DNA from: a phage
DNA length: 64,000 bases
Assembly: GCA_019326865.1 (NCBI GenBank)
Contig: GCA_019326865.1_4101.1
Reading direction: 5' to 3' (one strand)
Positions within the stretch are counted from its first letter, which is position 1. Every line of letters starts with the position of its first letter. The position numbers and the translations under genes were made by a program. This document shows, piece by piece, positions 1,407 to 52,673 of this stretch. The notes under the pieces are model-generated. The model had not been told where the DNA came from and ran no database searches. It was given only the letters and a program-made list of their open reading frames with translations.

Positions 1407-2048
1407 ATGACTAAGCAAGAAATATTCAAAACATTAATTGACATTTTACGTTCATCTAAAACTCGTTGTGCAATGGAGTTTGATATTCCTTACGCTGAAC
1501 GAGTCATCTTTCCACAAGTAAAAGAGGCAGGGCTTACTTTACTTGGTATGGGGATGTACTCTGTAGTAGTTGAACATAAAAACTATCCAGGTCGTGCATT
1601 TAAAGTAACCACGTCACGATGGGATGGTTTTCGTGCTTATGCAAAGTACTGTATTGATAACACAGGAACTAAGTTTCTTCCTGTAATATACAGTGCAAAC
1701 GAGCAAGGAAACTTTGGATGGTATGAGATGGATAAGTACTACCCTATCATTAAACAAAAAAACAATTATGATGACTTTGTTAGCACTAAAATTGGAGATT
1801 TGTATTCGTATGCACATGCTGGTCAGCACGTAACTTCAGTGAATGAACTGCGTGGAAATTCAGAAGAGATTGCAATTGCAACTGTTGTAGCTAACATAAT
1901 GAAAGAGTTTCATGGTCGTTTTGTACCAGACATTCATTCCAGTAATGTAATGATGGATAAAGATGGAAATTTATTCATCACTGACCCTATTTCGTGTGAT
2001 GTACGTCGAGAAATACCAATCACTGAAGAAGACCCAATTTTTTATTGA
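1407..2048 (+). CDS. hypothetical protein, protein-kinase-fold-like (Gly-rich loop, AFKV lysine motif, C-terminal HSSNVMMDKDGNLFITDP)
   Basis: ORF with SD aaaggatg; alternative GTG start at 1404; motif order resembles kinase subdomains but catalytic Asp not canonical. Confidence 0.55.
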   Translation: MTKQEIFKTLIDILRSSKTRCAMEFDIPYAERVIFPQVKEAGLTLLGMGMYSVVVEHKNYPGRAFKVTTSRWDGFRAYAKYCIDNTGTKFLPVIYSANEQGNFGWYEMDKYYPIIKQKNNYDDFVSTKIGDLYSYAHAGQHVTSVNELRGNSEEIAIATVVANIMKEFHGRFVPDIHSSNVMMDKDGNLFITDPISCDVRREIPITEEDPIFY

Positions 2049-2111
2049 CAGAACTTGTGTTCTGGTGTATATTAAGTGAATTATAAACAAATTGTGACAC
2101 AGGATTAAATC

Positions 2112-2393
2112 ATGCGTTCATTTGAAAACTTAATAGGTAAACTTCTTTTATCTGAAATTAGTGAAGACGTTAAGGAATTATGCAAATCAAAAAGTTACAT
2201 TCATTTGGATGAACTGTTTGTTAAGTACGGAGAGATTAGTTTTAAATCATTATTTGTTTTTACTATGAAAGTACATAGTTTAAAGTACTTCGATTTAAGT
2301 TATAAAAATGGTCAACCAAATCTTTATCATATGTATTATCTCAAGAATATAGAAGAAGCTCATATCTTATTTTCTGAATATCTGAAGGTATAA
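2112..2393 (+). CDS. hypothetical protein
   Basis: ORF in operon-like spacing. Confidence 0.5.
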   Translation: MRSFENLIGKLLLSEISEDVKELCKSKSYIHLDELFVKYGEISFKSLFVFTMKVHSLKYFDLSYKNGQPNLYHMYYLKNIEEAHILFSEYLKV

Positions 2394-13105: not shown

Positions 13106-13473
13106 TGGAAATTGCTCTTATTATCTTAACTGCTATGCTGTTTATTAGTACATTGGTTATAATTGGCAAATTCTTTTGTGTATCATTTTTAGAAACGGTA
13201 TACGATGAAATTGCTGATGATTATGAATTACACGCCGGATTTTTCATTACGTATTGGCTTAGTTTATTTTGTCTAGTCATTGTTTGGATTTTACATATCT
13301 TTAAATGGGGTATGGTGGACGGTGATCCTATCATGGCAATTATTGTTCTAGTGTTTGGTATCCTAGGTGGTGCAGTACATAATATGATGGTTATTTGGCA
13401 AACTGTTCAATGTGTATTGGTTCCTTATTTCGAAAAAATGCACAGTACAATTAAAAAACGTAAACGAGGTTAG
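13105..13473 (+). CDS. small multi-TM membrane protein, family A
   Basis: Paralog, basic tail KKRKRG. Confidence 0.6.
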   Translation: MEIALIILTAMLFISTLVIIGKFFCVSFLETVYDEIADDYELHAGFFITYWLSLFCLVIVWILHIFKWGMVDGDPIMAIIVLVFGILGGAVHNMMVIWQTVQCVLVPYFEKMHSTIKKRKRG

Positions 13474-13474
13474 T

Positions 13475-13837
13475 ATGAACGGGATTGAATTATCTTTCAT
13501 TGGTCAAATACTAGTAATGGTGAATACTTTCTTTTTCTCACTTATTGCATTAATGTGCATTGGAAAGTATTTTCATAAACAACCATTCTCAAATTTATAT
13601 GATGTAATAAAAAAGAAATATAGTCCTGCACATAGTGTACTTATTTGCAGTTTCAATTTTGGTTTTGTTGTATTAATAATTGGATTGTTAACATCAACGT
13701 CAAATGTAATGATCTTCGGTCTTATGATCTGTTCATTGGTATTAGCAGTAATTGTATGTTGTTTAGTACTGCACCTTGTAGTACTATTATATATAAAGCT
13801 CGTTGAAATCCATCAACGTTTAGGTATGAGGAAATAA
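13475..13837 (+). CDS. small multi-TM membrane protein, family A
   Basis: Start at ATG after upstream stop. Confidence 0.55.
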   Translation: MNGIELSFIGQILVMVNTFFFSLIALMCIGKYFHKQPFSNLYDVIKKKYSPAHSVLICSFNFGFVVLIIGLLTSTSNVMIFGLMICSLVLAVIVCCLVLHLVVLLYIKLVEIHQRLGMRK

Positions 13838-13838
13838 T

Positions 13839-14210
13839 ATGAGTTACCGTGAGATATTTTCCATTATTTCAATTATTATGTTCAGTGCTGGGACATTGGT
13901 GTGGGTATTATATTTTTTCTGTGTATCACCAGTGTATAATATGTTATGTAATATTAAATCAAGTTCTGGATATATGACTTTTATGATCTTTATGGGATAT
14001 TATTGTCTAAGCATTTTAGGTGTTGTTTTGGTTGTTATATTTGATGTAGGGCCAAATAAGGATGGTCTGAAAATGTATGAGTTAATAACTATGTTTGGGT
14101 GTATGATACCAACTGCACTAATGTTTGTAGCTATTGGTGCTGGATGTATAAAGTTATACAATTATTTAAAATCCATTCATCATTCCATTCATAATAAACG
14201 TATGTCATAA
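13839..14210 (+). CDS. small multi-TM membrane protein, family A
   Basis: Paralog. Confidence 0.6.
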   Translation: MSYREIFSIISIIMFSAGTLVWVLYFFCVSPVYNMLCNIKSSSGYMTFMIFMGYYCLSILGVVLVVIFDVGPNKDGLKMYELITMFGCMIPTALMFVAIGAGCIKLYNYLKSIHHSIHNKRMS

Positions 14211-14943: not shown

Positions 14944-16089
14944 TTATTTTTTCCAAGGAAGTAACGAAGTTGGAATCTTGATAGGTATATTTGATGCAAC
15001 AACATCAGGAAAATTTGCATCTCCACAAACATACAAATTATCGATTTCGTCTATCAATAATGTATAGTTGTAACTTCTACAAAAACCACTTAAGACTCTT
15101 CCCTCTAATGCAGATAAATTCATTTCAGTGAATTGAGTGATATATGTTTCATTTGAACCAACACCACATTGACCATTAGCATTTATACCACAAGTAAGCA
15201 ATTTATTATTGTTTTGAATTACACATGATGGTCCAGCAAGGTTCGTACCTAGTTCACCTACAACATTAACTTCACCTTTTAATGATAAATTTGGGATCAC
15301 TGTACTCATTGGGACTCGAGATGTATTTCCGACACCTGCTTGCCCTGAGCCATTAGTGGATGCTACTTTAACAGTACCGTCATTAAGAAAAATATAAGAT
15401 GTTTCGATTGTATTAACTGCTTGAGTAGCTGATGTTATTGACGTATCCTGTTTGAATTTAAGTACATTTGTCGTTGTTGAACCAGAGATAAATGTAGCAC
15501 CTGCGTACCAATATGTTCCATCCTGGAGTACTAAACCAGTACTTCTAATTGAACACCCAGCACTTCGAACATTTTCTATATGACTATATGTAAAGGTTGA
15601 TACGATTGAAGATTCACCATTACCGAACACCCCACCAGTACCTGCACCACAGAAAAACCATTTACCGTTTTTCAAAAATACACGCATACAAGCAGAAATA
15701 ACCACACTATCAATATCACTTGCAGTTACACCAAAATCGGTAAATAAATGAGTTATATCAATCCAATTACCACCAGTATTTGATGGGAGATGTGGAATTA
15801 CAACTCTAGTCCCTGTGTACCAGATTGTATCATCATCTTTAATAACAAGCGTACCTTGAACACCACCCCAATACCTGGTTACATTAGTATTAACAAGTGT
15901 CCACTCATTAGATGATTCCGTTGAGCCATTACCACCTTGACCATATGATGATGAACCGCACCAGTATAAATTGCCATTTTTATTTAAATAAAATTTTGCA
16001 TCAGCCGAGCATTGTAATCTGTATTTGAATACGGTTTTTGGTGCTGGTGCAATATTTGCATACTTAATCATTCTTCCAAAAGGTAACAT
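14944..16089 (-). CDS. RCC1-repeat-like (beta-propeller) protein, paralog 1; N-terminus MLPFGRMIKYAN
   Basis: Repeated G-x-N-x-x-GQ-x-G-like motifs (e.g. LYWCGSSSYGQGGNG); conserved 5' cassette. Confidence 0.7.
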   Translation of the reverse strand: MLPFGRMIKYANIAPAPKTVFKYRLQCSADAKFYLNKNGNLYWCGSSSYGQGGNGSTESSNEWTLVNTNVTRYWGGVQGTLVIKDDDTIWYTGTRVVIPHLPSNTGGNWIDITHLFTDFGVTASDIDSVVISACMRVFLKNGKWFFCGAGTGGVFGNGESSIVSTFTYSHIENVRSAGCSIRSTGLVLQDGTYWYAGATFISGSTTTNVLKFKQDTSITSATQAVNTIETSYIFLNDGTVKVASTNGSGQAGVGNTSRVPMSTVIPNLSLKGEVNVVGELGTNLAGPSCVIQNNNKLLTCGINANGQCGVGSNETYITQFTEMNLSALEGRVLSGFCRSYNYTLLIDEIDNLYVCGDANFPDVVASNIPIKIPTSLLPWKK

Positions 16090-16138
16090 AATTTCTCTCC
16101 TTCATTCATTATACTGTATTTAACCCAATTAAGAAAAG

Positions 16139-16155
16139 CCAGTATCAAGTACTGG
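16139..16155 (-). terminator. hairpin ccagtatcaagtactgg
   Basis: Perfect inverted repeat after stop of 16163..17512; recurs at 17561 and 19997. Confidence 0.55.
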
Positions 16156-16162
16156 TATTTTA

Positions 16163-17512
16163 TTATTGTAATGGAATTTCAGTGAGTGTTTTATATGTAC
16201 TTCCGTTATACACCCCTCTCCAATATACTTTACCATCAGTACTAACCACTAATAATCCATATGTTGTAAACCCAAGAGTACCACCAACATACATAGCATC
16301 TTTGATTCTAATACCAATGTCTTCATATGTAAATGACGCGACTGCACCCGCTTGCCATGAAGGACTAGCGTAGTAATCACTATAAACACCATGTGCTTTA
16401 TATATTGATGTTGTTCCTGGTTCAAAAATTACAGTTCCACAGTAGTTCATTCGTATTTTAGTACTGGATGAAGTTGGTACATTTATACCTACGTCATCTT
16501 TTATCCCTGTGGTTAGGACGTTAAAACCACCCGCCACACGGTTGACGTCATTCGCACCGATTAAATACATACCAACGTTGTAGCCCATATAAAACACACT
16601 AGAGCTTCCATTCCAGAAAGAAAAACCACCACCATTCCCACAGCGATATAGTTGTGAATTTGAGCAGTACATCATACCTTCGTTTGTCGCATCAAATTCA
16701 TCTGCTTTTCCTATTGTAGCTACTGTAGTCCAAGTTTTAATTACTTGGTTTGTACTAGCTGGTGTTTGTATACCATATCGTATATTATACCCTTTACCGA
16801 CTATTGTACCATCTTCTAATTTGGCATAAAGTACAGGTCTATTACCAACAAAATACATATTATTGTGTGACATGTCTATTGTGCATCTTAATGAAACTAC
16901 TTTTTGTTTCAATTGATTATCTTTAGTAAAAGAAGTAAAGTAGTAATCTGATGTTGAGTTGTTTATTAAACCTTGTATTGACAACCCCATATACCAGATT
17001 TCTCCATTACTGTTCAATGCTGCCAAAATACAACTATATTTTGAAGTATATGCTGGGGTTACTGATGTTGCTGGTCCTTTATCATATCCACCACAGAATA
17101 CCATCTCCACAACTTCACCCACGTTAGCAAAATAAGAAGATACATTGATAAAACCATTTGTTATAAAAGGTGCTGTATTTATACTTGAATGTGTGAATAT
17201 CCCATTTGCATATACACCACAAAAATGATATGAACCATCATTATCTTGGACTATTATTCCATTTGATAGTAACCAAAAATTGTTTACATTTTTTCTTACT
17301 AATTCGATTCCTGCCCCATTAGTTGGCGTTATACCAAAAGAAACATATTTTGTTTGACCAATTCCATATAAATTTCCATTTGATGCTAATATTGCACCAA
17401 ACCAATTACCACCACCATTCTTGTTATGACCCATACCTATAGAATCAAATTTCTTAACAGTAGGAGCTTGTACTTTGTTCCCATAATTCACCATTCTTCC
17501 AAAAGGTAACAT
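16163..17512 (-). CDS. RCC1-repeat-like protein, paralog 2; N-terminus MLPFGRMVNYGN
   Basis: Conserved N-terminus and upstream motif; G/S/T/N-rich repeats. Confidence 0.65.
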   Translation of the reverse strand: MLPFGRMVNYGNKVQAPTVKKFDSIGMGHNKNGGGNWFGAILASNGNLYGIGQTKYVSFGITPTNGAGIELVRKNVNNFWLLSNGIIVQDNDGSYHFCGVYANGIFTHSSINTAPFITNGFINVSSYFANVGEVVEMVFCGGYDKGPATSVTPAYTSKYSCILAALNSNGEIWYMGLSIQGLINNSTSDYYFTSFTKDNQLKQKVVSLRCTIDMSHNNMYFVGNRPVLYAKLEDGTIVGKGYNIRYGIQTPASTNQVIKTWTTVATIGKADEFDATNEGMMYCSNSQLYRCGNGGGFSFWNGSSSVFYMGYNVGMYLIGANDVNRVAGGFNVLTTGIKDDVGINVPTSSSTKIRMNYCGTVIFEPGTTSIYKAHGVYSDYYASPSWQAGAVASFTYEDIGIRIKDAMYVGGTLGFTTYGLLVVSTDGKVYWRGVYNGSTYKTLTEIPLQ

Positions 17513-17560
17513 ATTTCCCTCCTTTATTCATTATACTATATTTAATACTAAAAGAAAAAG

Positions 17561-17577
17561 CCAGTATCAAGTACTGG
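17561..17577 (-). terminator. hairpin ccagtatcaagtactgg
   Basis: Same hairpin, after stop of 17585..18694. Confidence 0.55.
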
Positions 17578-17584
17578 CATTATG

Positions 17585-18694
17585 TCATTTTGGTAAATTA
17601 ATTTTAGTAAAGGCTGCAACATCCTCGATTGCACCAGGAATTGCGTAATACGATCCAGTACTATATACATCTCCGTCTTTGGTTAATATTGATGTTAAAC
17701 CATCACTAAAAAGAACATCCCTAATCTCACTAACTTCAACGGGTAATTGTAAATTAGTAGCACTATATATTGCACCAGTTTGAGAATTGTTTAATCCCAA
17801 ACCACGGTTCGCCCCAACACCCTTCTGATATGTACTAGTAATTACCATTTGTGTAGCAGTATTTAAGGCAGGTGAATTCGTCATAAACAACGGTGAACTA
17901 TTAGGCAAAGTACTTGCAGGAACTGCACGAAATGTAGTTGTATCTGAACTAAGAAAGTTTGGCGTTTGACCACATACGAAATATGATGTACCATTATAGT
18001 AATTAAATGCATTACCACCAATGACTGCATCGATTACACCAGAGCTACGTAATCCCCACGTGTTAATTTGTGTTCGGTTCCCCGTGCCATGCTGACCCCT
18101 GTCATTCCACCCAGAACTATATAACTTATTATCTAATGTAATATACATACTGTCATTTGCATTCGTCATTACTTTACGCACATTAGTAGCACATTGAGTT
18201 AATGTGTAAATTGATGATGAACCAATACCTAAAGCACCACGATATCCATTAGCTCCTGCACCATAGAGTACTGAACTAGTGCTAAGTACAAATATTAAAC
18301 CATACGAACATACAATATTAGCAATTTCACTCACTGGTATAGCACTGGTAAACCAATTAGTTCTTTCAACTAATACTGTGCTGTAAGAAGTAGTTGTAGA
18401 CGATGTGAACCAATATGTTTCCCCTGATGTCCATATAGTATTATCATTTTTAATAATAACAAGTGCACGATCACCTACGAAAAAATTAGAAACATCTGCA
18501 CTTACTAATATCCATGAAGATACCGTGTTTTTATTACCATTTCCAGATTCACCACCTTGATTTCTACCTATGTAATATAAATCATGTGAATCAGTTAATA
18601 AGAATTGACCCTGTGTAGATGCACCAACTTTAATTATATTTTTAGGACCAGGTACAATATTCCCATAATCAAACATTCTTACAAAAGGTAACAT
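17585..18694 (-). CDS. RCC1-repeat-like protein, paralog 3; N-terminus MLPFVRMFDYGN
   Basis: Start placed at conserved MLPF methionine with SD ggag (track start is 15 nt upstream); motifs LYYIGRNQGGESGNG, LYSSGWNDRGQHGTGN. Confidence 0.65.
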   Translation of the reverse strand: MLPFVRMFDYGNIVPGPKNIIKVGASTQGQFLLTDSHDLYYIGRNQGGESGNGNKNTVSSWILVSADVSNFFVGDRALVIIKNDNTIWTSGETYWFTSSTTTSYSTVLVERTNWFTSAIPVSEIANIVCSYGLIFVLSTSSVLYGAGANGYRGALGIGSSSIYTLTQCATNVRKVMTNANDSMYITLDNKLYSSGWNDRGQHGTGNRTQINTWGLRSSGVIDAVIGGNAFNYYNGTSYFVCGQTPNFLSSDTTTFRAVPASTLPNSSPLFMTNSPALNTATQMVITSTYQKGVGANRGLGLNNSQTGAIYSATNLQLPVEVSEIRDVLFSDGLTSILTKDGDVYSTGSYYAIPGAIEDVAAFTKINLPK

Positions 18695-18768
18695 AACTAA
18701 AATCTCCATATAATAATTATAATGTATTTACAAAAAAATACCAGTACGTATTTCAGTACTGGTATCAT

Positions 18769-19950
18769 TTATGGTAAAATGATAGATTGTAACGAACTCA
18801 TACCCAATGCTGGAACACTAGCCTGTGGTGCTGGAGAATTCAATTTTGGTGATGAAACCGCATATGACATTCCTGAACCCAAATCTGGATCAAAAACTAC
18901 AGCACAATAATTCCCACTATATATAAGTCCATTCTTGTATCCTTGTGCACTTTGAATGCATTTCGTGAACGTACCAATATCTGTCGTGGCATTTATTAAG
19001 TTCCTCCCACGATAACCGCAGGTGTATATGAAATTATCATCGCCTATGTACATACTAGAATCCCCAGAAGAACTACATAGATACGACATATAAGCACGCA
19101 TGTTTTTAGGAGCAACTGACAATGTACCTGCATAGAATTTATTATTCGAACCCGTAATATCACCATCACCCAATGCACCAAAACTTCCCCAGCCAGTACC
19201 GTAATATCTCTTATCACTCAAAAATATAATACAGTTGTTATTACACATCTTGATTTGATATATCAATGAAGGATCAACCCCAGGGAATGATTCAGTGAAT
19301 GTTAGAACAGCCGGATCAGTACTAGCATTACATTGATGATATGTATTAGTACCAGCGGACAAGATTGTTCCATTAGCTAACAGAATTCTCGCAGTACCAG
19401 TACCAGCAGTACAAGCAACTGCACTTCCTGCACTTCCGGTGTATATTTGTCTGAAAGTAAAGAAACCAACAGTTTTACTTCCCTGCCCACTCCAACCAGT
19501 ATTATCAACTCCACACGCCCATACTGAACCATCTTGCATGATCATCATTACACCAAAGCGTTCTATTGAAATATAAACAATCTTCGTTGTATCAACTGCA
19601 CTAAATCTAGAAGTTATATCAGTCCATACCTTAACACTTACCGCCGTCGCACTGGAAGTAGGATCTTCACCAGCTATCATTATCCTCCCATTGTTAGTAA
19701 GATACATTGTCTGACTATAACCAGTACTACAAAACTTAACACTATCAGTCTCTGGAACTTTTAACCACTCGTTGTAACGTGTTACGTTAGTGTTATTACC
19801 TAACTGATAATAGTTATTCATCCCAGATACATATAACACACCATCCTTTATTAAACTATAAGTCGCACTATAGTCACTACAGGTATAACGTGTACCCACA
19901 GGTCGCTCAACGACGTTCCCGTACTTAACCATTCTCCCAAAAGGTAACAT
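18769..19950 (-). CDS. RCC1-repeat-like protein, paralog 4; N-terminus MLPFGRMVKYGN
   Basis: Motifs LYVSGMNNYYQLGNN, VWACGVDNTGWSGQG. Confidence 0.7.
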   Translation of the reverse strand: MLPFGRMVKYGNVVERPVGTRYTCSDYSATYSLIKDGVLYVSGMNNYYQLGNNTNVTRYNEWLKVPETDSVKFCSTGYSQTMYLTNNGRIMIAGEDPTSSATAVSVKVWTDITSRFSAVDTTKIVYISIERFGVMMIMQDGSVWACGVDNTGWSGQGSKTVGFFTFRQIYTGSAGSAVACTAGTGTARILLANGTILSAGTNTYHQCNASTDPAVLTFTESFPGVDPSLIYQIKMCNNNCIIFLSDKRYYGTGWGSFGALGDGDITGSNNKFYAGTLSVAPKNMRAYMSYLCSSSGDSSMYIGDDNFIYTCGYRGRNLINATTDIGTFTKCIQSAQGYKNGLIYSGNYCAVVFDPDLGSGMSYAVSSPKLNSPAPQASVPALGMSSLQSIILP

Positions 19951-19996
19951 ATTTTCCTCCTTTATTCATTATACTATATTTAATACAAAAAGAAAT

Positions 19997-20015
19997 GCCA
20001 GTATCAAGTACTGGC
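19997..20015 (-). terminator. hairpin gccagtatcaagtactggc
   Basis: Same hairpin, after stop of 20024..21172. Confidence 0.55.
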
Positions 20016-20023
20016 ATATTAAT

Positions 20024-21172
20024 TCATTGTATAAATGACATATCTACTTCTGTATAATTAAGAACGTTCTGTCCAGAAATACCACCCATTACTACTATTG
20101 CAAGGCCACAATAATATAATTTTCCAGTATCCGTAAGTATAAGTGATCCAGATGGACTGCGTACCAAATCACACGAACTATTAAAAGAAGTATAAGAAGG
20201 AGTATAGGAGTACTGATTATTATTATTACCAACACCTAATTGCCCAAACCCATTCGATCCAGAAGCATATAGAACTTCATCTGCTTTGACAATATGTGAT
20301 GCCATGTTACCAACACAAGTATATAGAGTATAAACTCCTGAACTCAATAATGTCGGAGTTTTATATTGTATATCTGTAGATGTAGAAGTACCACCTGTAC
20401 CAAATTCGTTCCCATATTGTGCACCGAACTGTTTACCACAAGCGTACAAATTATTATCCGATTTGATAAAAAATGTACTCTGATAACTTACATTAAAATC
20501 TATAACATCCGAAGAAATCATCGTCACCCCAGTAATAGAAGTTTGATTACCCGTGCCCAACTGGTAGTAATAGTTAAAACCACAACCCCATAAAGTATTA
20601 TCTTCTCGCAAATAAATGTTACCAACTGCCTTTTTAACCGAAGTTATAGTATCTACTCTTTTGAATGTGTTAAAAGAATTAATGTTTGTACCATCACCAA
20701 ATGATGATATGTTCGATATATTGTTAACTCCACAACAATACAATGTACCATCTTTTGTTATCAAATTCACCTTCATATCATAAAAACTACTCATGTATTT
20801 TATATCAGAAACATTAACACCACTTGATGTTATCCACGTAGTACAGTCCGTCCACAAAGTTTTTCTATCAGTTACACCAGTGAATGCCTTCGTGTTACCA
20901 GTGATAAAAACTTTTCCAGTACCTTTCTCTTCATACAATTGACAATCACTACTGTTATCTTCCAATAGAACTCGTTTAACATTCTCCGCACAAAGAATAA
21001 ATTTACTCGATGCTACACCTGTACCAGTACCCCAATTCGTCGCAGAAGATGCATACAACTTATCAGTATAAGTATCATGAAGATACATAGAATCACTGGA
21101 ATATATTTTAAAACGCCCTTCTTTCTCAGGTATAATATTCCCGTACTTAACCATTCTCCCAAAAGGTAACAT
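20024..21172 (-). CDS. RCC1-repeat-like protein, paralog 5; N-terminus MLPFGRMVKYGN
   Basis: Clearest RCC1-like motifs: LYASGSNGFGQLGVGN, LWGCGFNYYYQLGTGN. Confidence 0.75.
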   Translation of the reverse strand: MLPFGRMVKYGNIIPEKEGRFKIYSSDSMYLHDTYTDKLYASSATNWGTGTGVASSKFILCAENVKRVLLEDNSSDCQLYEEKGTGKVFITGNTKAFTGVTDRKTLWTDCTTWITSSGVNVSDIKYMSSFYDMKVNLITKDGTLYCCGVNNISNISSFGDGTNINSFNTFKRVDTITSVKKAVGNIYLREDNTLWGCGFNYYYQLGTGNQTSITGVTMISSDVIDFNVSYQSTFFIKSDNNLYACGKQFGAQYGNEFGTGGTSTSTDIQYKTPTLLSSGVYTLYTCVGNMASHIVKADEVLYASGSNGFGQLGVGNNNNQYSYTPSYTSFNSSCDLVRSPSGSLILTDTGKLYYCGLAIVVMGGISGQNVLNYTEVDMSFIQ

Positions 21173-45199: not shown

Positions 45200-45448
45200 T
45201 ACGTAAAATGATTTAGTACTGATTCAGAAAAAAGTCAAGGCGTTTTTAAAATTATGCGTTAAAAAAATGCATAGGTAATCCCTTGACTTTTTTGAAATAA
45301 AAGGGATTGGACTATGGCAAAATGCGTAGGGGGGCTAAAGTGCGGGTAACTTAGCGGCTTCGATAAAGGGGTATTACGAATAAAATGTTATTGACTTTTT
45401 ATATAAATCGTATAAAATATGATTGATAATAATTTTAAGGGAGTCCCT

Positions 45449-45646
45449 GTGCGTATTTTAACTCAAGCAGAACACCACGAAAGACTTATCAATAACATGG
45501 CTATGATAATGTATAAGTCCCATGACCGTGGTATTGCCTATAAGCGTGAATTAGTACTGGAACTATTCATTGGAACTAACTTTCAGGAAAGGTATGTCAA
45601 CGATTGGATTTGGTATTTAATTGAAGATATAACGAGTAAACTATGA
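45449..45646 (+). CDS. GTNYQ-family small protein, member 1 (GTG start after SD aagggag)
   Basis: N-terminus VRILTQAEHHERL aligns with family M.IL..EY; C-terminal GTNFQERYV. Confidence 0.55.
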   Translation: MRILTQAEHHERLINNMAMIMYKSHDRGIAYKRELVLELFIGTNFQERYVNDWIWYLIEDITSKL

Positions 45647-45837
45647 TCATTTTAAATAAAGAAGAATATCAAGAACTGTTACGTAAAAACTTTGTAAAGA
45701 TTTATAATACAGACACACACGTAGAACGAATGGAGTTATACCTTTTGATTACATTGGGAACTAACTATCAGGAAAGATGGGTGATTCAATATATGGATAC
45801 ATTGAAAAATAAAATATTGTCCACGAGGAAACAATGA
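45643..45837 (+). CDS. GTNYQ-family small protein
   Basis: C-terminal LGTNYQERWV; ATGA-coupled. Confidence 0.65.
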   Translation: MIILNKEEYQELLRKNFVKIYNTDTHVERMELYLLITLGTNYQERWVIQYMDTLKNKILSTRKQ

Positions 45838-46043
45838 AAACTATAACACGAACCCAATCATTCGGACTTATCTTGAAATACATGGACTTAATGGTGGATA
45901 TCAGCAAAGACCTGCCTAAAACTGCAATTGAAGTTGCAAGAGCAGAGATCCGCATGTTGGCTGTACTGAACACAAACCATCAGGAAGAGTATGTTGACGA
46001 TTGGATTCGATTTTTAATAGAAGATATTAAGAGTAAACTATGA
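45834..46043 (+). CDS. GTNYQ-family small protein
   Basis: Family motif; coupled. Confidence 0.65.
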   Translation: MKTITRTQSFGLILKYMDLMVDISKDLPKTAIEVARAEIRMLAVLNTNHQEEYVDDWIRFLIEDIKSKL

Positions 46044-46252
46044 TTATATTAACACCTGAAGAATATAAGAAACGTTTTAATTCTGTCCAGACTGAAATAT
46101 TACTTATATACCTTTCAAATGCAGATCTTAACTTATCAAGGGTAATGGAGAAGGATTTACTTATGGGTGCATTTTTGGATACAGACTTTCAGGAGTATTA
46201 TGTAGGGGAATACTTTATTGCACTTCAGAACCACATTAAGAGTAAACTATGA
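46040..46252 (+). CDS. GTNYQ-family small protein
   Basis: Family motif; coupled. Confidence 0.65.
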   Translation: MIILTPEEYKKRFNSVQTEILLIYLSNADLNLSRVMEKDLLMGAFLDTDFQEYYVGEYFIALQNHIKSKL

Positions 46253-46464
46253 TTATTCTAGAAAAATCATATCAATATACTGAACGCATCGCTGCCAGAC
46301 AACTTGAAATCCTCATAATATACGAAGAGACTTCTGATTTAAACTTAGCCGAGGTATTGGAAAATGAAATACTTTTGGGTGCATTCTTGGGAACAGACTA
46401 TCAGGAGTATTATGAGGAAAAGTATTTGTCATCTCTTGAGAAATACGTCAGGAGCAAACTATGA
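46249..46464 (+). CDS. GTNYQ-family small protein
   Basis: Family motif; coupled. Confidence 0.65.
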   Translation: MIILEKSYQYTERIAARQLEILIIYEETSDLNLAEVLENEILLGAFLGTDYQEYYEEKYLSSLEKYVRSKL

Positions 46465-46688
46465 AACATTTAAGTAATATAGAGAAGAATAAAATTATCA
46501 TTGCTGTAATAAACAAATATTTTACACTTCCACAAAAAGAATGTTTATCTATAAGGGAACACAGGATAAACACCACCGAGATTCGCATGTTGGCTGTACT
46601 GGGGACTAACTTCCAAGAAGGCTATGTTCATGAGCACATCGTTGCACTCACTAATTACATAATGGACAAATGCAATGAACATCATTAA
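46461..46688 (+). CDS. GTNYQ-family small protein
   Basis: Family motif; coupled. Confidence 0.65.
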   Translation: MKHLSNIEKNKIIIAVINKYFTLPQKECLSIREHRINTTEIRMLAVLGTNFQEGYVHEHIVALTNYIMDKCNEHH

Positions 46689-46899
46689 TAACTTTGAATA
46701 CGAGGCCCGTGTTAAGAGTGCCAGAAAAAAAGAGAACACCATTTACTTCACTATGATGTACTTACAATGGACTGAAATTGAAGAAAAGGTTGCTGAAGTA
46801 TGGATGTTGGAATTCATGGGGACGCAGTATCAGAATAGGTTTGCGGGTGAGTATATCAATGTTCTTATGAAACAAATAGAAAGGAAGGAAAAGAACTAA
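46675..46899 (+). CDS. GTNYQ-family small protein
   Basis: Family motif (MGTQYQNRF). Confidence 0.6.
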   Translation: MNIINNFEYEARVKSARKKENTIYFTMMYLQWTEIEEKVAEVWMLEFMGTQYQNRFAGEYINVLMKQIERKEKN

Positions 46900-46984
46900 T
46901 GGAGGGATGCTGTACTTTATTGGAACTTTTATATATTCATGAACACATAGTTGCCCTCACAAATCTAATAAAGGATAAATGTAA
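46900..46984 (+). pseudogene. decayed fragment of a GTNYQ-family gene
   Basis: Translates in pieces to LYFIGT.. and EHIVALTNLIKDKCK, matching C-terminus of 46461 gene, without intact ORF. Confidence 0.5.
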
Positions 46985-47242
46985 ATGAAACACTTGACTG
47001 ATGATGAACATGAAACTATAATTCGTAAACTAACCCCCATCACAAGGATAGTCTACGGTGATCCCAGCCTCACATGGAACCAAATGCGAGCTAAAGTTAA
47101 TGAGCTATGGTTGCTGTACTTTATGGGGACTCAATATCAAGATAAGTTTTGCACAGAATATATCGAACAATTAACGAATGTTATACAGGATAAACTAAAT
47201 GAACGAATTGTGGAAAAATATGAAAACTTTATCAAGCATTGA
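46985..47242 (+). CDS. GTNYQ-family small protein (extended C-terminus; usual coupled stop lost)
   Basis: Family motif; junction aaactaAATGaa instead of aaactATGA. Confidence 0.6.
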   Translation: MKHLTDDEHETIIRKLTPITRIVYGDPSLTWNQMRAKVNELWLLYFMGTQYQDKFCTEYIEQLTNVIQDKLNERIVEKYENFIKH

Positions 47243-47471
47243 GTATCAGACTGCCCTCTTCTCTCTTCTAAACACCCTCCGCACGAACAATAAACTTTAT
47301 AATTCACGTGAAGCTGATATTGTCAACGCTGATGTATATCTTAATAAATTTATAGGGACTAACTATCAAGAACTGTTTGTTTTACGATATATCTCTGCAC
47401 TAAGAAACGAAATATCAGATAAAACCCGCCAAGCCAGAAGAGAATGGAAGAGACAATGCAACAAAGACTAA
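47199..47471 (+). CDS. GTNYQ-family small protein
   Basis: Family motif FIGTNYQELFV. Confidence 0.6.
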   Translation: MNELWKNMKTLSSIEYQTALFSLLNTLRTNNKLYNSREADIVNADVYLNKFIGTNYQELFVLRYISALRNEISDKTRQARREWKRQCNKD

Positions 47472-47707
47472 ATCACAAAATGTATTGTAAACTATTACAG
47501 AATCTAGGACAAAAACACTATGATACAGTATCTGAAATATTACCCTATGATATCATGCGTTTAATTCATAGTGAGGCAGAGATGCTTGTACTGATGACCG
47601 GTACTGATAAAACAGCAATCACCAGATCGATAGAGCAATATATTGATGCACACTGTCAATGTATTAGAACTGAGATATGGAGGCGAGTAAATGAAAGTAC
47701 TGAATGA
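47444..47707 (+). CDS. GTNYQ-family-like small protein (diverged motif MTGTDKTA)
   Basis: Position in array; weak motif. Confidence 0.45.
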   Translation: MEETMQQRLNHKMYCKLLQNLGQKHYDTVSEILPYDIMRLIHSEAEMLVLMTGTDKTAITRSIEQYIDAHCQCIRTEIWRRVNESTE

Positions 47708-47906
47708 GTATCAGTATCATTGGAGGTTACAAACTATAAGAGGGAAAGTTGTTAGTATTTCTTTAGACAAGTCTATTGCACAAGAGGACAAATGTGTTAT
47801 AATAGCTGAAATGAAGTTGGGTGTATTTGTAGGAACAAACTATCAAAACATCTACACTGACGTATTATTAAGTGCCTTACGCAACAAGGTGTTATCCAGA
47901 GAATGA
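47691..47906 (+). CDS. GTNYQ-family small protein
   Basis: Family motif. Confidence 0.65.
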   Translation: MKVLNEYQYHWRLQTIRGKVVSISLDKSIAQEDKCVIIAEMKLGVFVGTNYQNIYTDVLLSALRNKVLSRE

Positions 47907-48121
47907 GAAAATTAATAGGTTACGAATATGTTAAGCTTCTGAAAACCTGTAGTATTAGCAGGGTAAAGATTCAATCTGATAAGAGTATTCCTGTTGAACT
48001 AAAGTACGCAATGATGGCTGAACTTTATGTAGGTGCACTATTGGGGACAAACTATCAACAAATGTATGTAGACCTATGGGTTGACGCTCTACTGAAAGAG
48101 GTCCAAAGTAAATGCAAATGA
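47903..48121 (+). CDS. GTNYQ-family small protein
   Basis: Family motif. Confidence 0.65.
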   Translation: MRKLIGYEYVKLLKTCSISRVKIQSDKSIPVELKYAMMAELYVGALLGTNYQQMYVDLWVDALLKEVQSKCK

Positions 48122-48333
48122 TTCATTTATCTTACTATGAATATCAAAAACGTTTAAATGCATCAAGGGATATAAGGATTAAAATCTACAATAACAAAAG
48201 ATTGAAATCTGAAGCCAAAAAAATCAAAATGATAGAAGCTGAATTATGCAACTTCCTTGGGACGAACTATCAGGATGATAAGGTAACAAACTATCTTAGA
48301 GAACTAATGATTAGTATCAAGAGTAAATGTTAG
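48112..48333 (+). CDS. GTNYQ-family small protein
   Basis: Family motif. Confidence 0.65.
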   Translation: MQMIHLSYYEYQKRLNASRDIRIKIYNNKRLKSEAKKIKMIEAELCNFLGTNYQDDKVTNYLRELMISIKSKC

Positions 48334-48337
48334 GCAG

Positions 48338-48595
48338 ATGTACATGAAAATGATTAAATTATCTCAAGCAAAATATAAAGAACGCCTGGAAAAAATTACA
48401 CCTAGACTTAATGAAATCCATCACGGAGAAGTCATTAAACACGGAAATAAGATGATTATGAAACTTGAGTTAAAGGTGGGTGCATTCATAGGAACAAACT
48501 ATCAGGAGTATTATGTAGATGAATACATAATCGCACTTAAGAGATACATTGGAAGAAAACTATATCTACAAACTAAAGAATTGTATTGCAAATAA
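48338..48595 (+). CDS. GTNYQ-family small protein
   Basis: Family motif. Confidence 0.65.
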   Translation: MYMKMIKLSQAKYKERLEKITPRLNEIHHGEVIKHGNKMIMKLELKVGAFIGTNYQEYYVDEYIIALKRYIGRKLYLQTKELYCK

Positions 48596-48876
48596 ATGCA
48601 AGGATAATGAATATGAAAATGATCAATTTAAGTAAAGATGAATATACCGAGCGTATGACAAAAATTACGCACAAACGTAATACAATCTATCACAACCCAG
48701 AAATTCAACACAGTAAGAAAATGATTATGATGCGTGAGTTAAAGATGGGTGTATTCTTGGGAACAAACTATCAAGATACAGAAGTAAATCGCTTAATCGC
48801 GGAGTTACTACTGGAAATCAGAGGTAAGCTGTACTTTCATCAAATGACCCAACCACTGAGGTGTACTAAGAAATGA
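48586..48876 (+). CDS. GTNYQ-family small protein
   Basis: Family motif. Confidence 0.65.
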   Translation: MQINARIMNMKMINLSKDEYTERMTKITHKRNTIYHNPEIQHSKKMIMMRELKMGVFLGTNYQDTEVNRLIAELLLEIRGKLYFHQMTQPLRCTKK

Positions 48877-49088
48877 TCAACATCACATTGCAAGAAAGAT
48901 TCATCCGAATCAACTATGCAATTACCAAATTAGATGCTACTATAGGATTCCAAAGTCTACCGTTCCAAACAAGAATGATATTAGAGTGCGAAGCTAAATT
49001 GGGTGTACTGTTAGGAACGCAACACCAACAACGATATGTGGAAATCTGGATTGATCTTTTAACCCAAAATGTACATGAGAAAATGTAA
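48873..49088 (+). CDS. GTNYQ-family small protein
   Basis: Family motif (LGTQHQQRYV). Confidence 0.6.
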   Translation: MINITLQERFIRINYAITKLDATIGFQSLPFQTRMILECEAKLGVLLGTQHQQRYVEIWIDLLTQNVHEKM

Positions 49089-49325
49089 ATGAAAAATGAA
49101 ATGATATACTTAACGAATGAAGAGTTTCAAGAGAAGATGTTAAAAATCTATGATAATACTCTTGAGTACGTTCCAAATCAATCAATATATGAAGTGTCTG
49201 CGAATGTATTATTTCAGAAGCTACCATACGTTCTTGGAACGGATAAACAAGAATTTATGGTCAAAAATATGATTGAACATCTTATGATGAGTATTAAGGA
49301 AAAAGTGAATGCAAAAGAAAAATGA
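49089..49325 (+). CDS. GTNYQ-family small protein
   Basis: Family motif (LGTDKQEF). Confidence 0.6.
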   Translation: MKNEMIYLTNEEFQEKMLKIYDNTLEYVPNQSIYEVSANVLFQKLPYVLGTDKQEFMVKNMIEHLMMSIKEKVNAKEK

Positions 49326-49572
49326 AATGATATACTTAACACCTGCTGAGTTAACAGAAAGACTAGTTAAATCCAGAAGATATACAAATCAACTTCCTCA
49401 CAACCCAAATCAAACCCCAGCGGAAAGGAGTGCAGAAGTTTTATTCCAATCACTACCATACCTTCTTGGAACTAATAGACAAGAGTATCATATCGAACGT
49501 ATAATTAAATATCTTAAAATTACTATTAAGGAAAAAGTAAATGCTCAAGAATTTAAAAATCCTAACAGTTAA
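49309..49572 (+). CDS. GTNYQ-family small protein
   Basis: Family motif (LGTNRQEY). Confidence 0.6.
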   Translation: MQKKNEMIYLTPAELTERLVKSRRYTNQLPHNPNQTPAERSAEVLFQSLPYLLGTNRQEYHIERIIKYLKITIKEKVNAQEFKNPNS

Positions 49573-49783
49573 TGAATATCATAAGATTGTAATGAAAACT
49601 AATAGTGCAATTTCTAAAAAATCAAACCCAAAGTACATACTGGAACACACATTTGAAGAACGTCAATTAGCTTTAGTTGAAGCAAAACTTCTTGCACTCT
49701 TAGGAACAAACTATCAGGAAGAATACATCAGAAAACTAATATACCTTTTAACTAAACACATCAGGAAAAGAAAAAAAGCATGA
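49541..49783 (+). CDS. GTNYQ-family small protein
   Basis: Family motif. Confidence 0.65.
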   Translation: MLKNLKILTVNEYHKIVMKTNSAISKKSNPKYILEHTFEERQLALVEAKLLALLGTNYQEEYIRKLIYLLTKHIRKRKKA

Positions 49784-50010
49784 AGCACTTGACAGATGAT
49801 GAACATGGGCTTATAGTAATGGATGTAATCAACATCGAATACAAAAAGTTGATACGCTATCGTTGTTATGAAGATAAGCAACTAGTTCTAGCAGAACAGA
49901 AGTTGTTTCGACTCTTAAACACAAACTTCCAAGCACAATACGAAGAATCGTATATGTACCTTTTGGCGAGGAAAGCAAAAAGAGATTATGAAAATTTTAA
50001 GCAAAGGTGA
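49780..50010 (+). CDS. GTNYQ-family small protein
   Basis: Family motif (LNTNFQAQY). Confidence 0.6.
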   Translation: MKHLTDDEHGLIVMDVINIEYKKLIRYRCYEDKQLVLAEQKLFRLLNTNFQAQYEESYMYLLARKAKRDYENFKQR

Positions 50011-50209
50011 TTCAGTAATATTACTTATAGAGAGTTCAAATAAATTCTTAAACATAACACTGTCTGATATAGATGAAGATGATAAAGAAGTACTGAGAGC
50101 AGATTTAAGAGTACTGTTACATCTCGGAACAAACCTACAAGAAGAATATGTAGAGTACTACATTGATGAACTTAAAGAATCAGTACTGAGAAGATGCAAA
50201 TGCGAATGA
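49988..50209 (+). CDS. GTNYQ-family small protein
   Basis: Family motif. Confidence 0.6.
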   Translation: MKILSKGDSVILLIESSNKFLNITLSDIDEDDKEVLRADLRVLLHLGTNLQEEYVEYYIDELKESVLRRCKCE

Positions 50210-50421
50210 TTACCGACGAAGAATACCTAACAATTATAAATGGATTGTTTTTGAAGTTGTTTGTTATTAACACATCAGATATACCAGATATGGATAAAAT
50301 TATTAAGAGAAATGAAATCTATGTTCTAGCTACCCTGGGAACTAACTATCAAGAATGCAATATTAATGATTATATTAATACACTTAAAGGAGCGATTGAA
50401 CTAAAATGCCAAAACCACTAG
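50194..50421 (+). CDS. GTNYQ-family small protein
   Basis: Family motif. Confidence 0.65.
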   Translation: MQMRMITDEEYLTIINGLFLKLFVINTSDIPDMDKIIKRNEIYVLATLGTNYQECNINDYINTLKGAIELKCQNH

Positions 50422-50621
50422 GAACAGCAGAATACATTGAACTCATGGGATTACACTTCTCATCCTTTCAGAAACTTATGCGAGAATCAAAGAATGATTT
50501 AGAATATACCATCAGAGGTTCAGATTTAAGAATGCTTCTCACCCTAGACACAGATTCCCAAGAGAGATTTGTCAATGAGCATATTAGAGCACTTTTAATG
50601 GAAATTAAAAGTAAACTATGA
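50406..50621 (+). CDS. GTNYQ-family small protein
   Basis: Family motif (LDTDSQERF). Confidence 0.6.
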   Translation: MPKPLGTAEYIELMGLHFSSFQKLMRESKNDLEYTIRGSDLRMLLTLDTDSQERFVNEHIRALLMEIKSKL

Positions 50622-50833
50622 AGGTAATATCAAACCAAGAGTACTTGGCACTATTCAGGAAGAATAATCACAAATATATGGCACTTGATTCAAGAACTGA
50701 TATAGGGGAACTTGAAAAAAATCTTTTGCGTTCAGAGATGATAGTACTGACACTCTTAGGAACACAACATCAAGAGAGAACTGTTGATTCATATATTGAG
50801 ATTCTTAAGAAGCTTATACAGGAAAAACTATGA
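50618..50833 (+). CDS. GTNYQ-family small protein
   Basis: Family motif. Confidence 0.65.
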   Translation: MKVISNQEYLALFRKNNHKYMALDSRTDIGELEKNLLRSEMIVLTLLGTQHQERTVDSYIEILKKLIQEKL

Positions 50834-51060
50834 GAATCATAACACAAACAGACATATTTAAGTTAGCAAGGGAACATACATCTGAAATTGATGCTATAGT
50901 ATCAAAAAGTTACAATGACCCTTATACACAAGATGTGCACTACAATGAATTATGGGTGTATATACTTTTAGGTACAAATTATCAAGAGCAAGCAGTACAG
51001 AAGTATTTGGCAGCTTTAAGTACTGCTACTGCTAATAGTATAGGTATTAAAAAATGCTAG
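50830..51060 (+). CDS. GTNYQ-family small protein
   Basis: Family motif. Confidence 0.65.
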   Translation: MRIITQTDIFKLAREHTSEIDAIVSKSYNDPYTQDVHYNELWVYILLGTNYQEQAVQKYLAALSTATANSIGIKKC

Positions 51061-51290
51061 TACTGACAGAACTAGAAATGTATCATAGATTTAATAAGTA
51101 CTATCATTTACTTAAGCCTATACAGAGGATTAAATGTCCATTTGAAGAGAAACAGGTATTAATTTATGAGCATAAGTTATTTGTATCATTAGGTACGAAT
51201 GAACAAGAGTATTATTTGAAGTTGTACTTAATTACTTTAATTGAATTGATTAATCACAAAACACAGAAAGCTAAGAAATCTAAAAAATGA
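51054..51290 (+). CDS. GTNYQ-family small protein
   Basis: Family motif (LGTNEQEYY). Confidence 0.6.
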   Translation: MLVLTELEMYHRFNKYYHLLKPIQRIKCPFEEKQVLIYEHKLFVSLGTNEQEYYLKLYLITLIELINHKTQKAKKSKK

Positions 51291-51625
51291 AAACTAATAT
51301 TCAACTCAAGGTATACATATCTTATGAATCTATATACATCAAATGCAGTCTATGTAAAGATGTAATGGATTATAAAGGTAAGCCATTCACAATTACTTAC
51401 AGTCTAACAGGAGGCTTTTATATATCTTTTGTTGATTACGAAAATAAAATATACAAGCACATTGATATTAAAGATTTAAGTACCTTGTCAGATGAGGAAT
51501 ACTTTCAAGAATCATTAGTATGGGATTTAGAGTTTCCTATGACATTAGTACACAAAATGATAGTACTAATGAAAGAAACTAAACCTGAGCCGAGTGGTTA
51601 TGAAGAATTCATTATTGAGTATTAA
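51287..51625 (+). CDS. FQxSLV-family protein (EEYFQESLVWD) embedded in GTNYQ array
   Basis: Motif seen in translation. Confidence 0.6.
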   Translation: MKTNIQLKVYISYESIYIKCSLCKDVMDYKGKPFTITYSLTGGFYISFVDYENKIYKHIDIKDLSTLSDEEYFQESLVWDLEFPMTLVHKMIVLMKETKPEPSGYEEFIIEY

Positions 51626-51637
51626 GAGTACTGATAT

Positions 51638-51853
51638 ATGAAAAGATTATCATACAAAGATTACAGTAAACTTATCAGTACTTTACAACCAGAAATTAGA
51701 AGAATTAATTATCTTCCTATATCTAACGAAGAACGTGTAGTACTGAAAAATGAGTTAATATTAAAACGCACAGTAGGTACTAACTATCAAGATAATAGTG
51801 TTTGCGATTTAATTAGAGGGTTAATGATCACAATAAAGGCCAAGTGCTATTGA
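51638..51853 (+). CDS. GTNYQ-family small protein
   Basis: Family motif. Confidence 0.65.
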   Translation: MKRLSYKDYSKLISTLQPEIRRINYLPISNEERVVLKNELILKRTVGTNYQDNSVCDLIRGLMITIKAKCY

Positions 51854-52163: not shown

Positions 52164-52480
52164 AATTTAATATAGCAAAAACATCGAATGTATGTATATT
52201 TGGTTATGCAGAAGAGTTAGGTGATATTGACATTCTTTTGTACAAAAAGGATGGTGTTATGCATTTCAAGTACCAGGATGAAGAGGCAGACAATTATCTT
52301 TTGCCTAATTTAGTACAAATGCAGGAAGAGGAATTATTCCAGTACAGCTTAGTATATGACATTGATATTTGCACGATGCCAGTACTAATTAATATTCAAA
52401 AAGTGATGCTCGATGTGTTTGATAGGCTAATACAAGGCACACAAGGAAGAACCATATATGTCAATGTACAAGACAATTAA
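52160..52480 (+). CDS. FQxSLV-family protein (EELFQYSLVYD)
   Basis: Start at MKFNIAK with SD ggag. Confidence 0.6.
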   Translation: MKFNIAKTSNVCIFGYAEELGDIDILLYKKDGVMHFKYQDEEADNYLLPNLVQMQEEELFQYSLVYDIDICTMPVLINIQKVMLDVFDRLIQGTQGRTIYVNVQDN

Positions 52481-52673
52481 TCAAGAATGGAAGAATCAAA
52501 AGTACAGAGAATTCAATAGGAATTTTACAAAAGACGAATTGAATATAAAAACAACAGAATTTGATATGTTTATTTTTCTCGGAACACGTTCTCAGGAGCA
52601 ATTTGTTCATTATTATATAAATTCGTTGCGAGCGGAGATAGTATGCAAAACAAAGGGTATTATAAAAAGGTAA
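52458..52673 (+). CDS. GTNYQ-family small protein (LGTRSQEQFV)
   Basis: Family motif, diverged. Confidence 0.55.
   Translation: MSMYKTINQEWKNQKYREFNRNFTKDELNIKTTEFDMFIFLGTRSQEQFVHYYINSLRAEIVCKTKGIIKR

What the first reader, a model, noticed from the sequence alone, without database searches (positions are those of the whole stretch)
46900..47242. Evidence of turnover inside the array: a decayed copy and a frame-disrupted junction
46900-46984 translates in pieces to family-like peptides (LYFIGT.., EHIVALTNLIKDKCK) without an intact ORF. At 47199 the usual aaactATGA stop/start junction has become aaactaAATGaa, extending the upstream gene by ~14 codons and creating a 44-nt overlap.
Basis: seen in the sequence. 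Interest (0 to 1): 0.4.

Follow-up and report, generated by a model that had tools for sequence, protein, structure and literature searches.

The report
Gene remnant in jumbo-phage paralog array
Inside a run of about 28 small look-alike genes in a giant E. coli phage, this spot holds the shrunken leftover of one copy and an old, conserved gene overlap: ordinary gene-family gain and loss, not a new kind of element.

Summary
The window comes from an Asteriusvirus (PBECO4/121Q-like E. coli jumbo phage). From 45419 to 51853 it carries 27 tandem copies of an orphan ~70-aa family (phrog_4148, no Pfam match; confident four-helix model, no informative fold match).

The "decayed copy" is real. Bases 46899-46988 are the remnant of a family member, and its 3' 57 nt align to the neighbouring copy far above chance. 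PBECO4, slurp01 and G17 carry a longer 52-aa version at the same place. The window lineage lost 58 + 11 nt more.

The two deletions total 69 nt (23 codons), which leaves an intact 29-codon ORF from the upstream stop (TAATG) to the downstream start (ATGA). That outcome has a chance probability of about 0.25.

The slot between the flanking genes has four alleles across the genus: empty, a different gene, B + 52-aa remnant, and B + 29-aa remnant. The empty allele is an A::remnant chimera, the signature of recombination between paralogs.

The junction at 47199 is as described (14 extra codons, 44-nt overlap). However, it has the same geometry in all 23 related loci, and 12 of the array's 28 junctions overlap by 7-44 nt. 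It is ancient, not recent turnover.

The result is ordinary birth-and-death evolution of a gene family. Interest is low.

The parts
45419..51853 (+). Tandem array of 27 intact ~64-96-aa paralogs (phrog_4148), plus the remnant and one unrelated 112-aa ORF at 51287..51625. A divergent 28th copy lies at 52458..52673.
   Evidence: ORF list. Family HMM scan with E from 1e-17 to 1e-27 per copy. phrog_4148 hits. Junction census.
46461..46688 (+). Gene A (array copy 6). Its 3' end is the closest paralogous match to the remnant. Its stop is displaced (DKCNEHH*), giving a 14-nt overlap with gene B.
46675..46899 (+). Gene B (copy 7). It is present only in alleles that also carry the remnant.
46899..46988 (+). 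Remnant f29: a 29-codon ORF, MEGCCTLLELLYIHEHIVALTNLIKDKCK*. Codons 2-13 read the old ...GWMLYFLGT... segment out of frame. Codons 14-29 (46938-46985) read the old C-terminal helix in frame.
   Evidence: Alignment to the 52-aa orthologue, showing 58-nt and 11-nt deletions. HMM E = 0.0025.
46907..46942 (+). Ancestral-frame piece MLYFIGTFIYS*, a relic of the WMLYFLGT core motif that now runs into a stop.
46985..47242 (+). Gene C (copy 8), with a conserved 14-codon C-terminal extension, NERIVEKYENFIKH.
47192..47203 (+). Junction aaactaAATGaa. Compared with the usual AAACTATGA it has two extra bases, so the TGA is out of frame for gene C.
   Evidence: Conserved in every relative examined.
47199..47471 (+). 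Gene D (copy 9). The first ATG is at 47199 and the family-consistent ATG at 47220, giving an overlap with C of 44 or 23 nt.
   Evidence: The profile starts at residue 8. Public annotations split 4:4 between the two starts.
48555..48606 (+). Second remnant (approximate bounds). The tail of gene 14 (YLQTKELYCK*) and the bases after it are the 3' end of a copy-13-type gene read out of frame.
   Evidence: alignment score 93 against a null of 20 +/- 3. HMM E = 0.054.

Best explanation
This is a relic of birth-and-death evolution in a tandem array of orphan four-helix proteins of an Asteriusvirus jumbo phage.

A family member once sat between genes B and C. It first lost its N-terminal part, giving the 52-aa form still present in PBECO4, slurp01 and G17. 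In the lineage of this window it then lost 58 nt just after its ATG and a further 11 nt inside the core GT..Q motif.

Because 58 + 11 = 69 = 23 codons, the reading frame comes back. A 29-codon ORF now exactly bridges the stop of B and the start of C. It retains only the last helix of the fold, so it is almost certainly non-functional as a family protein (inferred).

The slot is a recombination hotspot. Homologous exchange between the similar 3' ends of gene A and the remnant removes B and most of the remnant, producing the 'empty' allele seen in 121Q-like phages. The chimera is shown; the direction of the event is inferred.

The C/D junction is a separate and old feature. A 2-nt difference from the standard AAACTATGA junction put C's stop out of frame long ago. 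The resulting 14-codon tail and 23/44-nt overlap have been inherited by every relative examined.
For: Identity of the phage and family:
- The window matches only coliphage/Salmonella jumbo-phage records, and those inspected are classed as Asteriusvirus; UE-S1 is closest at 94%.
- The copies hit phrog_4148 and no Pfam family.
- Only 85 clusters at 50% identity match the profile in a library of 1.84 billion proteins.

Homology of the remnant:
- Alignment score of 55 against a null maximum of 35.
- HMM E = 0.0025.
- Base-by-base alignment to the 52-aa orthologue shows exactly two deletions, of 58 and 11 nt.

The ORF is intact. The same form, with 1-2 SNPs and always open, is in UE-S1 and in the other assemblies from at least 12 different samples.

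Four slot alleles exist. The empty-slot gene A follows A up to CACATAGTTGC and then follows the remnant's 3' end.

Turnover elsewhere in the array:
- Genes 4, 5, 14, 20 and 21 are present or absent between near-identical phages, with mid-gene identity breakpoints.
- A second remnant lies at about 48555-48606.
- A 154-aa two-copy fusion and a 58-aa internally deleted copy occur in public data.

The C/D junction geometry is identical in all 23 loci plus the window, in two diverged haplotypes. Twelve of the 28 junctions overlap by more than 4 nt.
Against: - No full-length progenitor of the remnant was found in 50,697 phage records. The claim that it was once a full copy therefore rests on family alignment.
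- The polarity of the slot polymorphism (deletion versus insertion) cannot be rooted, because no outgroup carries the family.
- Most of the population loci were retrieved by exact match to B or C. They are biased towards the same haplotype and do not measure its frequency.
Confidence: 0.85

Rival explanations
1. The 29-codon ORF is kept open by selection. It would carry ribosomes from the stop of B to the ATGA start of C (translational coupling), or keep the mRNA covered by ribosomes, so the second deletion was a compensatory fix.
For: - The ORF spans exactly TAATG to ATGA.
- Without it there would be an 85-nt untranslated gap. No other junction in the array leaves more than 12 nt.
- The ORF stays open in all three SNP variants across about 15 sequences.
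Against: - A random second deletion of 1-30 nt restores such an ORF in about 25% of simulations.
- The clade is too shallow (0-2 SNPs) to show constraint.
- Gene C has its own AGGA Shine-Dalgarno-like motif 9 nt upstream of its ATG (read from the sequence).
Confidence: 0.2
2. The slot polymorphism arose by insertion. An ancestral A-C arrangement acquired a block (variant A 3' end + B + 5' part of f) by recombination with another phage's array. On this reading the 52-aa form was never a full gene at this locus.
For: - The chimeric pattern is symmetric with respect to direction.
- Mosaic exchange between co-circulating phages is frequent in the array.
- No full-length f is known.
Against: One homologous deletion explains the empty allele simply. 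The 52-aa form has family-typical core and C-terminal helices but lacks the N-terminal ~20 residues, as expected of a truncated copy.
Confidence: 0.3
3. The junction at 47199 is a recent frameshift lesion or a sequencing error in this genome.
For: Relative to the commonest junction, AAACTATGA, it differs by two inserted bases.
Against: The length and geometry are identical in the 23 other loci, which come from isolates and metagenomes on several continents, including a second haplotype that differs at most of the 17 intervening bases. Only BF17 differs, through a TGA-to-GGA read-through.
Confidence: 0.02
4. The remnant is an independent functional micro-protein, a single amphipathic helix that for example modulates its full-length paralogs.
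For: - The ORF is open.
- It retains the conserved last helix, HEHIVALTNLIKDKCK.
- The 52-aa form is 100% identical in 9 phage records.
Against: - Codons 2-13 are out-of-frame read-through of old coding sequence.
- The AlphaFold model places this helix as one element of a packed four-helix domain.
- There is no evidence of expression.
Confidence: 0.05

Closest known systems
Pseudogene relics in tandem multigene families evolving by birth and death through unequal or homologous recombination (general concept, from established knowledge)
   Same: - A truncated, frame-shifted copy sits inside an array of intact paralogs.
- Copy number varies between close relatives.
- Chimeric genes occur at deletion joints.
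   Different: Here the relic happens to remain an open 29-codon ORF, with coupled start and stop signals at both ends. The family is an orphan restricted to one phage genus.
Lineage-specific expansions of small proteins in jumbo phages, for example the ~35-copy zinc-ribbon expansion in Bacillus phage G (PMC7824862)
   Same: Dozens of copies of a small protein in a single jumbo-phage lineage, with unknown or speculative function.
   Different: This family has no zinc-ribbon or other recognisable domain. I found no description of this array in the papers I searched and checked.
ATGA/TAATG stop-start overlaps used for translational coupling in bacterial and phage operons (established knowledge, e.g. 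E. coli trp operon junctions)
   Same: Thirteen of the 28 junctions in the array are ATGA overlaps, and the remnant keeps TAATG and ATGA at its two ends.
   Different: Coupling is not demonstrated here. Many junctions in this array use longer overlaps of 7-44 nt.

Membership tests
phrog_4148 array family (orphan ~70-aa four-helix protein of Asteriusvirus) | Significant match to the family profile | tested here: met
   The stop-to-stop piece 46851-46985 hits HMM positions 55-72 with E = 0.0025. The 3' 57 nt score 55 against a null maximum of 35.
phrog_4148 array family (orphan ~70-aa four-helix protein of Asteriusvirus) | Complete domain: helices 1-4 and the invariant GT..Q core motif (T49, Q52 in alignment A1) | tested here: not met
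   Only the last helix is in frame. The GT motif is read out of frame and its Q region is deleted.
phrog_4148 array family (orphan ~70-aa four-helix protein of Asteriusvirus) | Position in the tandem array, same strand, with stop/start signals shared with its neighbours | tested here: met
   TAATG at 46897-46901 and ATGA at 46985-46988.
Pseudogene / gene remnant | Homology to intact paralogs or orthologs together with loss of essential parts | tested here: met
   Deletions of 58 nt and 11 nt relative to the 52-aa orthologue, which itself lacks the N-terminal ~20 residues.
Pseudogene / gene remnant | No open reading frame across the relic | tested here: not met
   A 29-codon ORF at 46899..46988 is open in the window and in every relative that carries this allele.
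Pseudogene / gene remnant | Not expressed as a functional product | not testable with these tools
   This needs Ribo-seq, proteomics or genetics.
Translationally coupled overlapping gene pair (C/D junction) | The upstream stop lies at or downstream of the downstream start, on the same strand | tested here: met
   Stop at 47240-47242; candidate starts at 47199 and 47220.
Translationally coupled overlapping gene pair (C/D junction) | Downstream translation depends on upstream translation | not testable with these tools
   This needs reporter assays.

The most novel reading that the evidence does not exclude
The array is a recombination-driven cassette locus of orphan four-helix proteins, plausibly host-takeover or anti-defence factors. 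The near-invariant junction (AGTAAACTATGA) and the core motif (GGxACxAAxTAxCA) would double as crossover sites, and relics such as f29 would be kept open because translation of the whole array is coupled end to end.
Probability: 0.12. Interest if true: 0.5.

Novelty: new member of a known kind. Interest (0 to 1): 0.2.

Why it matters
The main value is for annotation and for reading this array correctly.

- The 85-nt "gap" is a gene relic that still forms a 29-codon ORF.
- The long C/D overlap is a conserved feature that annotators currently resolve inconsistently (4 records use the first ATG, 4 the second).
- The array is a documented hotspot of gene gain, loss and mosaic exchange among Asteriusviruses.

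The array could be a convenient natural system for studying how phages diversify small accessory proteins. The specific finding, however, does not reveal a new mechanism.

Tried and rejected
- Pfam on six family members gave only sub-threshold noise.
- PHROGs gave only phrog_4148, of unknown function.
- The afdb50 Foldseek library was not available.
- The profile search of 1.84 billion representatives found only 85 clusters. All are short array-type proteins apart from one long protein matched in nine partial stretches (not examined further), so there is no outgroup and no annotated relative. The word-index search gave the same picture.
- An exact-pattern scan of IMG/VR for the remnant's 3' end found nothing.
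- tblastn with the 52-aa form found no full-length progenitor.
- The promoter and terminator scan was not above chance: 44 sites against 40.5 +/- 6.7 expected. No regulatory role is proposed for the relic.
- I tested whether frame restoration indicates selection. Simulation gives P of about 0.25, which is not significant.
- Literature searches found no description of this gene family.
- No tRNA genes are present in the window.

Full report
**Context.** The 1.1-kb stretch around the finding matches only jumbo coliphage and Salmonella-phage records. Those inspected are classed as Asteriusvirus (the PBECO4, slurp01 and 121Q/Ecwhy_1 group). The best match is UE-S1 at 94.3%. A Logan assembly contig (SRR15217871_88, locus L011) encodes proteins 100% identical to the window's across this part of the array.

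From 45419 to 51853 the + strand carries 27 intact tandem ORFs of 64-96 aa. All of them match a family HMM with E between 1e-17 and 1e-27. A divergent 28th copy lies at 52458..52673. The family is phrog_4148, of unknown function, and has no Pfam match.

**Observation 1: the decayed copy.** MLYFIGTFIYS* lies at 46907-46942, and ...HEHIVALTNLIKDKCK* ends at 46988.

At nucleotide level, the 3' 57 nt align to the 3' end of the copy at 46461..46688 with score 55. The null distribution is 23.3 +/- 2.5 with a maximum of 35, both for shuffles and for random 90-mers from elsewhere in the window. The family HMM hits the piece at positions 55-72 with E = 0.0025. The 5' part on its own (score 31) is not significant, but its orthologue settles the matter.

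In slurp01, G17 and PBECO4 the same position holds a 52-aa ORF, MVFINISDQLDTKLEVEQSEG[W/G]MLYFLGTSHQNFYIHEHIVALTNLIRDKCK. It keeps the family core and last helix but lacks the N-terminal ~20 residues. Relative to that form, the window and UE-S1 carry a 58-nt deletion immediately after the ATG and an 11-nt deletion inside the GT..Q motif.

**Correction to observation 1.** In fact 58 + 11 = 69 nt = 23 codons, so the frame is restored. ATG 46899 to TGA 46988 is an open 29-codon ORF, MEGCCTLLELLYIHEHIVALTNLIKDKCK*.

- Its ATG overlaps the TAA of the upstream gene (TAATG).
- Its TGA overlaps the ATG of the downstream gene (ATGA).
- Codons 2-13 are out-of-frame read-through of old coding sequence.
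- Codons 14-29 are the old last helix, in frame.

The same ORF, with one or two SNPs and always open, is present in UE-S1 and in the other assemblies from at least 12 different samples.

Is the open frame meaningful? I applied the 58-nt deletion to the PBECO4 form and then added a random second deletion of 1-30 nt. This restored an ORF ending at the ATGA junction in about 25% of trials. Open-frame preservation is thus compatible with chance. Selection for translational coupling remains a minority rival: without the ORF, this would be the only gap in the array longer than 12 nt.

**Turnover at this slot.** Between gene A (46461..46688) and gene C (46985..47242), the genus shows four alleles:

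1. Empty: Ecwhy_1 (121Q-like), SP27, E9.1 and BF17.
2. A different intact family member: ph0011.
3. B plus the 52-aa relic: PBECO4, slurp01, G17, JP4, CRJP21, Sharanji and the Salmonella SD phages (11 records).
4. B plus the 29-aa relic: the window, UE-S1 and the metagenomic relatives.

In the empty allele, gene A follows the A sequence of PBECO4 up to CACATAGTTGC. It then switches to the 3' end of the relic (TDLIRDKCK* and the ATGA junction) rather than A's own KNYIMDKCNEHH* end. That is the footprint of recombination between the homologous 3' ends of two paralogs. The simplest reading is a deletion that removed A's 3' end, B and the relic's 5' part. The reverse event, an insertion, cannot be excluded because no outgroup exists.

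**Turnover elsewhere in the array.**

- Genes 4, 5, 14, 20 and 21 are present or absent, and genes 4 and 5 change order, between phages that are otherwise 97-100% identical. Identity often changes mid-gene, for example 100% to 82%, 73%, 68% and 79%, then back to 97% across genes 10-12 in locus L012.
- A second relic exists in the window. The tail of gene 14 and the bases after it (about 48555-48606) are the 3' end of a copy-13-type gene read out of frame (score 93 against a null of 20 +/- 3).
- Public data also contain a 154-aa in-frame fusion of copies 19 and 20, and a 58-aa internally deleted copy.

**Observation 2: the junction.** The description is accurate. aaactaAATGaa lies at 47192-47203. 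Gene C continues for 14 codons (NERIVEKYENFIKH) to TGA at 47240-47242 and overlaps the ORF starting at 47199 by 44 nt.

Three facts change the interpretation.

1. Both the PHROG profile and my own HMM begin at residue 8 of that ORF, that is at ATG 47220 (MKTLSSIEYQ...). The family-consistent start therefore gives a 23-nt overlap. Public annotations split 4:4 between the two ATGs.
2. The geometry AAACTA[A/G]ATGA - 17 nt - ATGAA...TGA has the same length in all 23 related loci and the window, in two haplotypes that differ at most of the 17 intervening bases (NERIVEKYENFIKH versus DDYLLTKHEDFIRS). Only BF17 has lost the stop, through a TGA-to-GGA change that gives read-through. The junction is therefore ancestral to the sampled genus.
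3. Twelve of the array's 28 junctions have overlaps of 7-44 nt, 13 are ATGA, one is TAATG, and the remaining two leave gaps of 4 and 12 nt. A displaced stop is a normal state in this array, including the A/B junction at 46675-46688.

**Mechanism.** The homology, the two deletions, the open ORF, the four alleles, the chimeric joint, the mosaic exchange and the junction conservation are all shown. Three points are inferred: that the relic descends from a once full-length copy, that the empty allele arose by deletion, and that the relic is non-functional as a protein because it keeps only one of the four helices of the modelled domain. The promoter and terminator scan was not above chance, so I propose no regulatory role.

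**Verdict.** This is a real but ordinary gene relic, plus an old conserved overlap, inside a little-studied and rapidly reshuffled orphan gene array. It is a new example of a known kind of process.

Noticed in passing
window 48555-48606 (alternative frame 48531-48632): A second relic. The C-terminal tail of gene 48338..48595 (YLQTKELYCK*) is the 3' end of a copy-13-type gene (…NYLRELMxSIENKC…) read out of frame. The nucleotide alignment to Ecwhy_1 scores 93 against a null of 20 +/- 3.
   Followed up: partly
window 46630-46688 compared with 46930-46988: Gene A of the window reads VHEHIVAL like the relic (IHEHIVAL), whereas gene A of PBECO4 and slurp01 reads VIAHIVAL. This may be a short gene-conversion patch from the relic into its neighbour.
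   Followed up: partly
window 46994-47022 and 49789-49817: Two 11-of-12 matches to the sigma-70 consensus (TTGACT-17-TATAAT and TTGACA-17-TATAGT) lie inside the shared MKHLTDDEH N-terminal coding sequence of copies 8 and 20. Another match (TTGACT-16-TAAAAT, 45391-45418) sits just upstream of the first array gene. The overall promoter-like count is not above chance.
   Followed up: no
window 51287-51625: A 112-aa ORF unrelated to the family interrupts the array between copies 26 and 27. It has only weak hits to PHROGs of unknown function.
   Followed up: partly
window 14944-21172, minus strand: Five tandem ORFs of 374-449 aa. The four that were scanned match the PHROG 'regulator of chromosome condensation' family (phrog_4219), and three of them also match Pfam RCC1-like beta-propeller models. 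This appears to be a second paralog expansion in the same window.
   Followed up: partly
window 11430-14210, plus strand: A run of back-to-back ORFs of 104-141 aa. The three that were scanned match three different PHROGs of unknown function, and one also has a weak membrane-protein hit. This may be a third array of small genes.
   Followed up: partly
P0001 (ENA contig, 154 aa) and P0131 (58 aa): Public assemblies contain an in-frame fusion of the orthologues of window copies 19 and 20, and an internally deleted copy of the 17/18 type. These are further examples of junction and copy decay in the family.
   Followed up: partly
L014 (Logan ERR11566739_5846), about 2690-2915: Gene B is split into two ORFs that are each 100% identical to the window's B. 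This is either a frameshift or nonsense variant, or an assembly error.
   Followed up: no
L003 (BF17) 1986..2294: In phage BF17 the stop of gene C is mutated (TGA to GGA). C therefore reads on to about 102 aa across the start of gene D.
   Followed up: partly
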